From assembly GCF_048403405.1 (NCBI RefSeq), contig NZ_CP183129.1: 64,000 bases of DNA. One strand, written 5' to 3'. Origin of the DNA: Escherichia coli (GTDB taxonomy: Bacteria; Pseudomonadota; Gammaproteobacteria; Enterobacterales; Enterobacteriaceae). A program made the position numbers. Position 1 is the stretch's first letter. Each line of letters starts with the position of its first letter. Positions 60,296-63,200 of this stretch are shown in pieces.

Positions 60296-63200
60296 TCAGC
60301 AACAGCGCACACCAGGTGGCGCTCATGCCGGAACGTCGCCAGCGGAACAGACGGTGATGAAAACCGTAATAATGCATCAGACGACCAGCAAGCAAAACGA
60401 TGCCGCAAATATGCACCATCCAGGTTTCTGCGCCATTCATTTCCATAAACAGCATCAACACAATCGCGATGGGAATATATTCCACCGCGTTACCATGAAT
60501 GCGAATAGCGCTTTGCAGTTCGCTAAAACCGCCGTCGCCATAGGCAACGCGGTACTGCATTCGCAGGCGAACGACATCAAAAGAGAACTTCATTAATAAC
60601 AACGCACTTAAAACGGCATATAGCGCGCTTACCATACAAACTCCCTTTAAAATGGCCGATGGCACCTGTCTATGATAGGTGGCAAATTCAGAAAAGAGAA
60701 GATTGCTGTGGAATAGCCGGAACTGCTCCGATCTCTGGAAGCGTTTTACGTAAGTCTTCCCACAGGGTATGTACCAGTTCCGGGGCCTGGGCAATATCTG
60801 GCGTATGTAAAAAAAGATAAGGCGTAGTGGTCTGATGCCACTGCGCTAATTTTTGTAACCAGACCTGAAATAATTCCCGGTTTTGCGTCATATCATCACT
60901 ACCGATAAAACGGATCAGCGGATTTGTCGCCGTCAGTACAGCATGTACCGGAACTTTAGGTTTTTTTCGTTGAGCGTCGCGAATAGCTTCACTGTGTGGA
61001 CGTGCTGCATGAACCGGGCGGCTGTCTAAAATCACCCGATTAACGCCGCGCTGATGTAAACCGCGATTAAGCGTTTGCTCCTCTTCCCCTTTGGCGAAAA
61101 ACTGTGGATGGCGGACTTCCACACCATAATTAAATTCGCCGGGAAGGGAATCGAGAAAATGCCAAAGCGCAGGCAGATCCCGTGGGCCAAATGTGGCAGG
61201 CAGTTGCAGCCAGTATTGCCCAATGCGCGGCGCTAACGGTGACATGCGGGTCAAAAATTCAGTCACTAAATCATCGCAATGCCGTAATGCTGCCTGATGC
61301 GAAATGGTCGCCGGAAACTTAAAACAGAAGCGGAAGTCATCTGTGGTCTGCTCACGCCAGCGCAGGACAACCTCGGGTTTGGGCAGGGCGTATAGCGTGG
61401 TGTTGCCCTCCACACAGTTAACATGACGGGTATTAAGGATTAACTTACTGATTTTAATAAGCCTCTGGTGTCACTTTGGTGACTATGGGGCATCATTGGG
61501 ACATAATCTGTCAGCTTCTGATTCAGCATTGCGATCTGTTCTGCATTGCTGTCAGTCATCCATGCTCCGTATACATTGAATACCATCTGGGCACTTGCAT
61601 GGCCCATCTGGCTGGCAATGAAGCTTGGGTTTGCTCCGGCAGATAATGACCAGCACGCATAAGTGTGTCGTGACTGGTATGCCTTTCGATGCCTGATCCC
61701 TGCACGCTTAATGGCTGTTTCCCATGAGTCACCTACAGAATCGACTTTGTAGACAAAACCTACCTGTTCGCTTTTTCTAACCACTTGAGGGTTAAACACG
61801 AAAGTACATTCATGGTTCACTGAACGTCCATATTCACGTAGTTGCACCTTGATGTTGTACTGCTTACCCAGTCTTGTCATTTCAGCCTGATTTTTCAGGA
61901 CACTGATAGCGGGCTGGATAAGGTGCACAACCCTGTTTGTGCTTGCTTCAGTTTTCGGTAGAGTGAACTCACCAAGTTTCGTATAATTGCGCCTGATGGT
62001 AATTGTTCCTGCCTTCAGATCGATATCTTCCCAGGCCAGGGAGACCAGTTCACCGTGACGCATTCCTGTGTACACAGCCAATGACCACAGGTTTTTCGTC
62101 TGCTGATGTCGGCAAGCATCTATCAGGCGAATAAATTCGTCACGAGTTAGCGGATCTGGCTCTGCCCTGGCTCTTTTAAGAGGCTTAATTCCCTGGAAGG
62201 GATTTGCTTCTAAGTAACCGTGATCTGCAGCAAACTGAAACATTCCAGCGATTGTCGTCATGTAATAATTTACAGTAACGACGCTCCGTCCTTTTGCTGC
62301 TGCTTTGTTTTTCGTTGAATTCTGATACCCGGTCAGCAAATCTTTCCTGATATACAGCAATTCCTCTTTGGTTACCGATGACACCAGTCTACTGCCTCCA
62401 ATTTTCGGAACCATCGTTCTTGCAACGGATTCATAGCGATTGAATGCATTTGCAGAGATTTCCATTCGTTTCAGATCCAGCCACTTTTCTTCAAGTTCCT
62501 TCACCGTAATTTCTTTTTTACTTACCCCAAAAGCCTGAAGGTTGGGGGAGTCAGGGAACTGTGCAGCATAATCAAAGCTTCCTGTGCGGATGGCAAAACA
62601 TACTGATGTCCGCAGTTCCCCGGCGATCTTCCTGTTCTTGGCAGTGTCAGGGACACCAAGATTTTCCCTGACACGTTTACCTTTAAAATTAAACCAGATG
62701 CGTAATGTGCCGCCGTGGTTTTCGACGCCTGTTGGATATTTGACTTTATCCATCGATACCTCCAGACGCCCAAGAGCGATACGAGCTTACATATTTCATG
62801 ATATTAAATCACCTGGGTTGTTTGTTTTTCATTGAGGCGACCCAGGCATCTATTGCTTTTCTGTTATACATACATTCACTGGAAGGCTTTGGATTACCGT
62901 CTGGTGATACGTGAATATACTCTCTTCCAACCATCCAGCATTCTTTCCGGGCCCGAAGAATTGTGCCTGGTTTGAGCCCGGTAATTGCGATAAGAACGCT
63001 TTCACAAACCCATTCATTGGGAGCCAGTTGAATCACATTGCCCATGTATTACCTCACACAACACTCAGCCCACGGCAGTGGCACCACACTTCAAACATTC
63101 GCTTCACAACTTCACGACAGTAGAAGCCGTCAACATCTCGCGTCAGGTCATAGCGATTGCAGTAACGCTGGTGGACCCATCGTTCAAATGCTTTATTCAT

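What the first reader, a model, noticed from the sequence alone, without database searches (positions are those of the whole stretch)
63057..63200. Unannotated 47-codon ORF with a strong Shine-Dalgarno between xis and the next prophage gene
A 47-aa ORF with an AAGGAAG ribosome-binding site is co-oriented with the prophage early-left genes and lies below the ORF-track cutoff. Small genes at this position in lambdoid phages are often regulatory or host-modulating.
Basis: seen in the sequence. Interest (0 to 1): 0.2.

Follow-up and report, generated by a model that had tools for sequence, protein, structure and literature searches.

The report
Conserved 48-codon phage gene before xis
The small reading frame is a real, conserved prophage gene for a 48-residue protein of unknown function; public databases already list it as a hypothetical protein, so it is an ordinary piece of phage dark matter, not a discovery.

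Summary
The ORF exists at window 63054..63200 on the minus strand. It has 48 codons plus TGA, not 47. AAGGAAG lies 6 nt upstream of the ATG. It sits between a DUF4222 gene (3-nt gap) and xis (8-nt gap) in a lambdoid prophage integrated at yecE.

- All 26 distinct DNA versions I collected keep the frame open, and every other frame has stops in some.
- pN/pS is 0.28, against 0.44-2.1 in the other five frames.
- A Shine-Dalgarno site recurs in seven different upstream contexts.

The gene is not unannotated. RefSeq calls the identical protein WP_016248041.1 (hypothetical protein). It matches PHROG 3871 over its full length. Homologous DNA occurs in 898 of 5426 complete E. coli genomes. The family (about 217 clusters, 44-49 aa) is confined to Enterobacterales.

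Members lie either directly upstream of several unrelated excisionase types or in the nin region before Q, so the gene is a portable accessory gene and not part of the excision machinery. AlphaFold predicts helix, beta-hairpin, helix (pLDDT 88). No match in Pfam, NCBIfam, PADLOC or PDB gives a function.

Verdict: a real gene, already catalogued, function unknown, low interest.

The parts
63054..63200 (-). ORF48: 48-codon CDS plus TGA. Member of PHROG 3871, identical to RefSeq WP_016248041.1 (hypothetical protein).
63207..63213 (-). Shine-Dalgarno AAGGAAG of ORF48. It lies inside the last codons of the upstream DUF4222 gene and is followed by that gene's TAA (63204-63206), AGA, then the ATG.
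63046..63056 (-). Junction TGAGGTAATAC before the xis ATG. The ORF48 stop codon overlaps the GAGG Shine-Dalgarno of xis. TGAGGTGA/TGAGGTAA recurs in front of different xis types.
62809..63045 (-). xis, a DUF1233-type excisionase and the downstream neighbour
61440..62753 (-). Tyrosine integrase. Its 3' end abuts or overlaps host yecE (DUF72).
63204..63446 (-). DUF4222 gene (PGAP start; the longest ORF runs to 63482), the upstream neighbour. It is in the same reading frame as ORF48, separated by TAA AGA.
63451..63534 (-). Conserved 27-codon hydrophobic ORF in the same operon. It is not annotated anywhere I looked. See Noticed in passing.

Best explanation
ORF48 is a genuine protein-coding accessory gene. 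It is the last gene before xis in the leftward early operon of a lambdoid prophage integrated at yecE. It belongs to the variable part of what the lambda literature calls the exo-xis region. It has its own Shine-Dalgarno site and is packed for translational coupling: 3 nt after the DUF4222 stop, with its own stop inside the xis ribosome-binding site. By analogy with lambda it would be made only after induction or infection, from the pL transcript; the copies in the nin region would be made from the pR transcript. This timing is inferred. The product is a basic 48-residue helix / beta-hairpin / helix microprotein. Its core (RYDLTRD..G.Y.REVVKRMFEVW) is held by purifying selection. It is too small for catalysis and has no conserved metal site. 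I therefore infer that it acts by binding a host or phage macromolecule early in lytic development, as other small early-operon phage proteins do. It is portable and dispensable, and it is not a component of the excision machinery. Shown: the gene is real, is conserved at the protein level, occupies two alternative genomic positions, and has a confident fold prediction. Inferred: expression timing, the binding mode of action, and the target, which is unknown.
For: Coding:
- All 26 distinct DNA versions are intact, and only the sense frame is stop-free in all of them.
- On 8 diverged lineages pN/pS is 0.28 (bootstrap 0.18-0.40) and the JC-corrected dN/dS is about 0.09. The other five frames give 0.44-2.1.
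- The invariant core carries many synonymous changes, including CGN to AGR arginine switches.
- Shine-Dalgarno motifs are present in 7 unrelated upstream contexts. The window's site scores -6.3 kcal/mol.

Family:
- Full-length match to PHROG 3871, E 2e-33.
- 109 and then 217 clusters at 90% identity, nearly all 44-49 aa; every named source organism is in Enterobacterales.
- 482 IMG/VR loci and 898 of 5426 complete E. coli genomes.

Portability:
- Directly upstream of DUF1233, PrtN-type, lambda Exc-type and a 69-aa unclassified xis-position gene.
- Also between rusA/ninG/ninH and Q.
- The same ORF48 protein is paired with Xis proteins only 46% identical to each other, and with the 69-aa type.

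Dispensability: deletion remnants exist.

Fold: the AF2 model has pLDDT 88 and pTM 0.66, with helices at 3-13 and 30-42 and a hairpin between.

Region: exo-xis genes are early pL genes that shift the lysis-lysogeny balance, and the block next to xis is variable in number and kind (PMC8614690; PMC3824215).
Against: - No experiment or expression data were found for any family member. The Sakai Ribo-seq small-gene supplements contain none of the family motifs.
- No homology or fold match gives a function.
- The conserved charged residues could be intramolecular salt bridges of a tiny fold and not a binding surface.
- The window's copy has Cys at position 14, where over 90% of relatives have Gly, so this allele could be impaired.
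- The strong tendency to sit directly before xis across several xis families is not fully explained by module exchange alone.
Confidence: 0.72

Rival explanations
1. ORF48 is functionally tied to excision. Either its protein is a partner or modulator of Xis/Int, or its translation delivers ribosomes to the xis start (coupling), which would set the Xis level.
For: - It lies directly upstream of xis in most early-left contexts sampled, across DUF1233, PrtN-type, lambda Exc-type and a 69-aa type, while the upstream neighbour varies: DUF4222, zf-C4_ClpX, LexA_DNA_bind, or a 27-aa ORF.
- Its TGA overlaps the xis Shine-Dalgarno, and the junction GTGTGAGGT(G/A)A recurs before different xis types.
- One metagenomic contig carries an in-frame ORF48-xis fusion.
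Against: - Relatives sit in the nin region before Q, far from xis, including one in E. coli.
- An identical ORF48 protein is paired with unrelated Xis types, so there is no co-variation.
- A pure coupling device would not need a protein sequence under purifying selection.
- An AF2 model of the ORF48+Xis concatenation gives two independent domains: pTM 0.47 and linker pLDDT below 50.
- There is no profile similarity to DUF1233 (hhalign probability 0.2%).
- Prophages with ORF48 deleted keep xis and int.
Confidence: 0.1
2. ORF48 is a small sequence-specific DNA- or RNA-binding regulator of phage development, pro-lytic or pro-lysogenic like named exo-xis genes, and not a binder of a host protein.
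For: - It is basic: 9 Lys/Arg against 6 Asp/Glu, counted on the sequence.
- It has invariant or near-invariant Arg/Lys on the hairpin and on helix 2: R16, R21, R29, K33, R34.
- Exo-xis region genes affect the lysis-lysogeny decision (PMC3824215; PMC8614690).
Against: - No Pfam or NCBIfam match.
- It is not homologous to any named exo-xis gene: tblastn over 50,697 phage records listed all 49 matching records, and lambda, 933W and phi24B are not among them.
Confidence: 0.13
3. The ORF is a chance open frame or the shadow of another feature, such as an antisense ORF or an RNA element.
For: ORFs of this size are frequent by chance, at 5.5 per kb. Two plus-strand ORFs overlap it, at 63038-63376 and 63078-63227.
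Against: - The sense frame is intact in 26 of 26 distinct versions, while the two antisense frames have stops in 8 and 4 of them.
- pN/pS is lowest in the sense frame.
- No Rfam match.
- RNA folding z-score is 0.06.
Confidence: 0.02

Closest known systems
PHROG 3871 / RefSeq WP_016248041.1 ('hypothetical protein', UniRef 'Bacteriophage protein')
   Same: The window's protein matches the whole 48-position profile at E 2e-33. It is identical to the RefSeq protein annotated at the same place in E. coli KE40.
   Different: Nothing differs. This is the family it belongs to, and the family has no known function.
Genes of the lambda / Stx-phage exo-xis region (orf60a, orf63, orf61, orf73, ea22, ea8.5)
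   Same: Same genomic niche: small, non-essential genes co-oriented with xis at the distal end of the early leftward operon. Papers describe the block next to xis as variable in number and kind, and describe effects on lysogenisation and induction (PMC8614690; PMC3824215).
   Different: No sequence homology. tblastn over all phage records finds no lambda, 933W or phi24B copy. None of those genes is reported in the nin region, whereas this family is. No functional assay exists for this family.
nin-region small ORFs of lambdoid phages (between ninG/rusA/ninH and Q)
   Same: Diverged members of the family occupy exactly this position and overlap their neighbours by 1-4 nt.
   Different: The window's copy is in the other accessory region, next to xis. 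No Pfam Nin family matched.
Small host-targeting proteins of the lambda pL operon (Kil, CIII); comparison from my own knowledge of lambda, not tested
   Same: Similar size (about 47-54 aa), early leftward operon, non-essential.
   Different: No similarity was detected by any search. They occupy a different position in the operon. The target of ORF48 is unknown.

Membership tests
PHROG 3871 (phage protein family of unknown function) | Significant full-length match to the family profile | tested here: met
   E 2.3e-33, residues 1-48 on profile positions 1-48 of 48. All 17 diverse members of A3 also match.
Protein-coding gene (as opposed to a chance ORF) | Frame kept open and under purifying selection in diverged homologues, with a ribosome-binding site | tested here: met
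   26 of 26 versions intact. pN/pS 0.28 against 0.44-2.1 in the other frames. Shine-Dalgarno site in 7 upstream contexts.
Protein-coding gene (as opposed to a chance ORF) | Direct evidence of translation | tested here: inconclusive
   None of the family motifs occurs in the supplements of the O157 Sakai Ribo-seq small-gene study. Prophage early genes are expected to be silent in uninduced lysogens, so absence says little.
Exo-xis region genes of lambdoid phages | Position between the recombination genes and xis, co-oriented, in the early leftward operon | tested here: met
   Directly upstream of xis, on the same strand as int, xis, DUF4222 and the ead/Ea22-like genes. Transcription from pL is inferred and was not tested.
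Exo-xis region genes of lambdoid phages | Homology to a named member (orf60a, orf63, orf61, orf73, ea22, ea8.5) | tested here: not met
   tblastn against 50,697 phage records gives 49 records, none of them lambda, 933W or phi24B. No Pfam match.
Excisionase / recombination directionality factor (DUF1233 type) | Sequence or profile similarity to excisionases | tested here: not met
   hhalign of A1 against A2 gives probability 0.2%. The Pfam scan has no Xis family.
Excisionase partner (hypothetical) | Obligatory linkage and co-variation with xis | tested here: not met
   Copies exist in the nin region. An identical ORF48 is paired with different Xis types. The AF2 concatenation gives pTM 0.47.
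Zinc-binding microprotein (suggested by C28, C40, H41, C42) | Four conserved metal ligands | tested here: not met
   C14 is specific to the window's allele, and most relatives have Gly there. C28 is A, S, Y or V, C40 is R, Y or G, and H41 is Y, E or D in various relatives. In A1 only C42 reaches 90%.
Regulatory leader peptide / upstream ORF of xis | Function lies in the act of translation, so the peptide sequence is free to vary; always upstream of the regulated gene | tested here: not met
   The peptide is under purifying selection, and the family also occurs away from xis. The overlap of stop codon and Shine-Dalgarno with xis is present, so coupling may exist as a side effect.
Known anti-phage defence proteins (PADLOC) | Match to a defence-system model | tested here: not met
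   0 families at E <= 1.
Known RNA family (Rfam) | Covariance-model match or unusually stable structure | tested here: not met
   0 matches at E <= 1. Folding z-score 0.06.

The most novel reading that the evidence does not exclude
The family is a portable 'gatekeeper' microprotein that tends to sit immediately before the two switch genes of lambdoid phages, xis and Q. It would tune their output, either through translational coupling (its stop codon lies in the downstream ribosome-binding site) or by binding a shared host factor. This would link the excision and late-gene decisions. The in-frame ORF48-Xis fusion would then be a Rosetta-stone hint.
Probability: 0.07. Interest if true: 0.5.

Novelty: already known. 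Interest (0 to 1): 0.15.

Why it matters
It matters little for discovery, because the gene is already in RefSeq and PHROGs as an uncharacterised protein. Three modest points remain:
- It is a clean example of a conserved 48-aa phage gene that older phage records (phiP27, VT1-Sakai) missed, which is useful for re-annotation.
- The family is common, present in about one in six complete E. coli genomes including Stx1 phages, and nobody knows its function. It is a reasonable candidate for screens of exo-xis and nin accessory genes.
- The neighbouring 27-codon hydrophobic ORF really is unannotated, because it falls below gene-caller length limits, and it may deserve its own look.

Tried and rejected
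- **Pfam, NCBIfam, PADLOC.** No family matched. The SoxD hits (E 0.18-0.28) are noise.
- **PDB by sequence profile.** The TAL-effector 'hits' at E 1e-7 have no individual stretch that passes. They are summed weak matches of 'EVVKRMFEVWCHCRGL' to the 34-aa TAL repeat, which is an artefact.
- **BFVD.** One family member matched at TM 0.87. Several uncharacterised phage proteins from Erwinia, Burkholderia, Pseudomonas and Stenotrophomonas phages matched at TM 0.64-0.75 and 20-30% identity, but with E of 0.4-10. This hints at a wider fold family and gives no function.
- **Homology to Xis.** I thought ORF48 might resemble the wing and C-terminal helix of DUF1233 Xis, from a pattern seen by eye. hhalign rejected it.
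- **Zinc site from the CxC motif.** Rejected, because the ligands are not conserved.
- **Exhaustive profile search of 1.84 billion representatives.** Only 28 hits. The single long hit (P0128, 993 aa) is a low-complexity repeat protein and not a relative.
- **Fusions as functional clues.** P0141 (DUF4222-ORF48) is a deletion between short 'FE' repeats. L101 is a deletion remnant. The ORF48-xis fusion in L096 is seen on two contigs only.
- **AF2 of ORF48 joined to Xis.** No confident packing.
- **Literature.** Nothing was found on this family. Searches for DUF4222, the exo-xis region and Sakai small genes gave context only.
- **Promoter and terminator scan.** Counts did not exceed those from shuffled sequence.

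Full report
**Observation**

The window's minus strand carries an ORF from ATG 63200 to TGA 63054. It has 48 sense codons: MNKAFERWVHQRYCNRYDLTRDVDGFYCREVVKRMFEVWCHCRGLSVV.

Reading the minus strand, the upstream context is ...AAAAGGAAG TAA AGA ATG. AAGGAAG (63213-63207) forms the last codons of the upstream DUF4222 gene. That gene's TAA is followed by a single codon's worth of spacer and then the ATG. The two genes are in the same frame.

Downstream, the TGA is followed by GGTAATAC and the xis ATG at 63045, so the stop codon is part of the GAGG ribosome-binding site of xis.

The Shine-Dalgarno duplex energy is -6.3 kcal/mol. That puts it in the top 6% of the 465 ORFs of >=40 aa in the window. 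For comparison, xis scores -6.9, int -10.6 and the 27-aa ORF upstream -11.6. An ORF of this length is not significant alone, at 5.5 per kb across six frames.

**Context**

The gene order in the direction of transcription is:
- a DUF551-tailed protein, cut by the window end
- a 27-codon hydrophobic ORF
- the DUF4222 gene
- ORF48
- xis (DUF1233)
- a tyrosine integrase
- host yecE (DUF72), yecN and cmoA

The same arrangement at 100% identity is in E. coli KE40. There the prophage continues with ead/Ea22-like, yfdR, rdgC and a LexA-family repressor gene. So this is the int-proximal end of the early leftward operon of a lambdoid prophage integrated at yecE.

**Is it a gene?**

I collected 100 homologous loci from phage records, E. 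coli genomes, IMG/VR and metagenome or genome assemblies. They hold 26 distinct DNA versions of the ORF.
- All 26 are intact, at 44-50 codons (46 columns shared by the eight diverged lineages).
- The sense frame is the only one of six that is stop-free in all of them. The two antisense frames that are open in the window, corresponding to the plus-strand ORFs 63038-63376 and 63078-63227, have stops in 8 and 4 versions.
- On eight diverged lineages pS is 0.72 and pN is 0.20. That gives pN/pS of 0.28 (bootstrap 0.18-0.40) and a JC-corrected ratio of about 0.09. The other five frames give 0.44-2.1.
- The invariant core RYDLTRD..G.Y.REVVKRMFEVW is encoded with many synonymous differences, including CGN/AGR arginine switches.
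- A Shine-Dalgarno motif precedes the start in seven unrelated upstream contexts.
- There is no Rfam match and no unusual RNA structure, with a folding z-score of 0.06.

**Is it unannotated?**

It is annotated in RefSeq. PGAP calls this CDS in KE40 as WP_016248041.1, hypothetical protein. In a spread sample of 40 E. coli genome hits, all 38 near-full or partial ORF matches lie under a 'hypothetical protein' CDS; the two short remnant matches lie under DUF4222 CDSs. The exact protein is on 82 public contigs. It matches PHROG 3871 over its full length at E 2e-33. Older or less careful records leave it out, namely phiP27, VT1-Sakai and some Stx phages.

**Family**

A word-indexed search found 109 clusters at 90% identity, and 217 when a diverse alignment was used. 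Nearly all are 44-49 aa and all are named 'hypothetical' or 'Bacteriophage protein'. They come from Escherichia, Shigella, Salmonella, Citrobacter, Enterobacter, Klebsiella, Cronobacter, Pantoea, Serratia, Providencia and others.

An exhaustive profile search of 1.84 billion representatives found only 28 hits, so the family is compact. DNA homologues are in 898 of 5426 complete E. coli genomes, with up to four copies per genome. There are 482 IMG/VR loci.

The window's allele has Cys14, where over 90% of relatives have Gly.

**Position and portability**

In the early-left location the gene lies directly before xis, whatever the xis type:
- several DUF1233 subtypes, including XisR-like ones
- a PrtN-family protein in Klebsiella
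- a lambda Exc-type protein in Pantoea, with a 4-nt overlap
- a 69-aa unclassified protein

The upstream neighbour varies between DUF4222, zf-C4_ClpX, LexA_DNA_bind and the 27-aa ORF. Homology to a prophage with a different int-xis module breaks 16 nt before the ORF48 stop, which gives a 44-aa variant. So the 3' end of ORF48 is a mosaic joint.

Other members lie in the nin region, after ninG, ninH or rusA and before Q. Examples occur in Enterobacter and Franconibacter assemblies, in metagenomes, and in E. coli S51, where the order is rusA, ORF, Q.

Identical ORF48 proteins are paired with Xis proteins that are 46% identical to each other or unrelated. Deletion remnants and deletion fusions exist.

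Together this describes a portable, dispensable accessory gene of the two variable early regions, and not a part of the recombination module.

**Structure and function searches**

AlphaFold2 with the family alignment gives a confident model, with pLDDT 88 and pTM 0.66. It has a helix at 3-13, a beta-hairpin around 17-27, and a helix at 30-42.

Nothing informative came from any of these searches:
- Pfam, NCBIfam and PADLOC
- PDB by profile, where the only hits are a TAL-repeat artefact
- Foldseek against PDB

BFVD returned one family member, plus non-significant resemblances to uncharacterised phage proteins at TM 0.64-0.75. Weak PHROG links to families 24254 and 343 are also of unknown function. 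The Cys and His residues are not conserved as a set, so a zinc site is unlikely.

**Link to excision**

Three things suggested a link to excision: the persistent adjacency to xis, the overlap of the stop codon with the xis Shine-Dalgarno, and one natural in-frame ORF48-xis fusion in L096. I tested this idea and found four points against it:
- no profile similarity to DUF1233
- no co-variation with Xis
- copies in the nin region
- an AF2 model of ORF48 joined to Xis that shows two independent domains, with pTM 0.47 and a disordered linker

Translational coupling to xis may well occur as a by-product of the tight packing. It cannot explain purifying selection on the peptide.

**Mechanism, with probabilities**

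| Claim | Probability | Basis |
|---|---|---|
| Real protein-coding gene | about 0.95 | shown |
| Expressed only with the early leftward operon after induction or infection | about 0.8 | inferred from position and from what is published for exo-xis genes |
| Acts as a small non-enzymatic binder of a host or phage macromolecule | about 0.7 | inferred from size, fold and conserved charged residues |
| Not part of the excision machinery | about 0.75 | inferred |

The target is unknown.

**Comparison with known systems and novelty**

It works like the small accessory genes of the lambda exo-xis and nin regions, and it occupies their niches. It is not homologous to any named one. It is a member of PHROG 3871 and is identical to an existing RefSeq protein. 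I therefore rate it as already known: catalogued but uncharacterised. Interest is low.

**Things seen in passing**

- The 27-codon hydrophobic ORF at 63451-63534 is conserved, has a strong Shine-Dalgarno site, and is absent from annotation and from the 15-billion-protein collection.
- The DUF4222 neighbour belongs to the domain family of RgdR, a prophage regulator of type III secretion in O157.

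Noticed in passing
window 63451..63534 (-): A 27-codon hydrophobic ORF, MSWPDAIVTLGVVFAAAFVVFSICRWG. 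Its ATG overlaps the TGA of the upstream gene (ATGA). It has a strong Shine-Dalgarno site (AGGAGGTGA, -11.6 kcal/mol), and its stop lies 4 nt before the DUF4222 start. It is always 27 codons in 74 held loci (14 distinct DNA versions and 4 different upstream contexts, each with a Shine-Dalgarno site). Diverged versions include MTWPEALTTVGIAMAVALVVYSICRWG and MSWPDAFFGAACVFAMAAMVLAIIFWG. pN/pS is 0.49. It is not annotated in RefSeq KE40, has no PHROG match, and the exact sequence is absent from the 15-billion-protein collection; I suspect it is below gene-caller length limits. It looks like a single-pass membrane microprotein.
   Followed up: partly
window 63204..63446 (-) (longest ORF to 63482): The upstream neighbour is a DUF4222 protein. 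A review states that RgdR (ECs1581), a prophage-encoded activator of the LEE type III secretion system in O157:H7, contains a DUF4222 domain (PMC10877973). The window's protein has RGQ where the review describes an RGD motif in RgdR. I did not compare the two sequences directly.
   Followed up: no
window 63159..63161 (-), codon 14 of ORF48: The window's allele has Cys14 (TGC), where over 90% of family members have Gly at the turn after helix 1. Only 4 of the 100 held loci share it. It could be a mildly damaging substitution.
   Followed up: partly
L096 2963..3336: In one metagenomic contig type (Logan DRR526068) the ORF48 homologue has no stop codon and runs in frame into a DUF1233 xis, giving a 124-aa fusion. 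The 27-aa hydrophobic ORF lies directly upstream of it.
   Followed up: partly
window 63201..63206 (-); P0141; L101 1407..1511: The DUF4222 gene and ORF48 share one reading frame, separated only by TAA AGA. Deletion fusions between them exist, for example P0141, which is joined at a shared 'FE', and a PGAP 'incomplete' DUF4222 pseudogene next to xisR.
   Followed up: partly
window 61440..61458 (-) and 60688..61458: In the matching RefSeq genome the integrase 3' end overlaps the annotated start of yecE (DUF72) by 19 nt. The prophage is therefore inserted at the 5' end of yecE and supplies its first codons.
   Followed up: no
phage record OM284015.1 22923..23066: A record named Elizabethkingia phage EKP1 (its host is in Bacteroidota) carries an 83%-identical copy of this enterobacterial gene. 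The record may be a misassigned or contaminating enterobacterial prophage.
   Followed up: no
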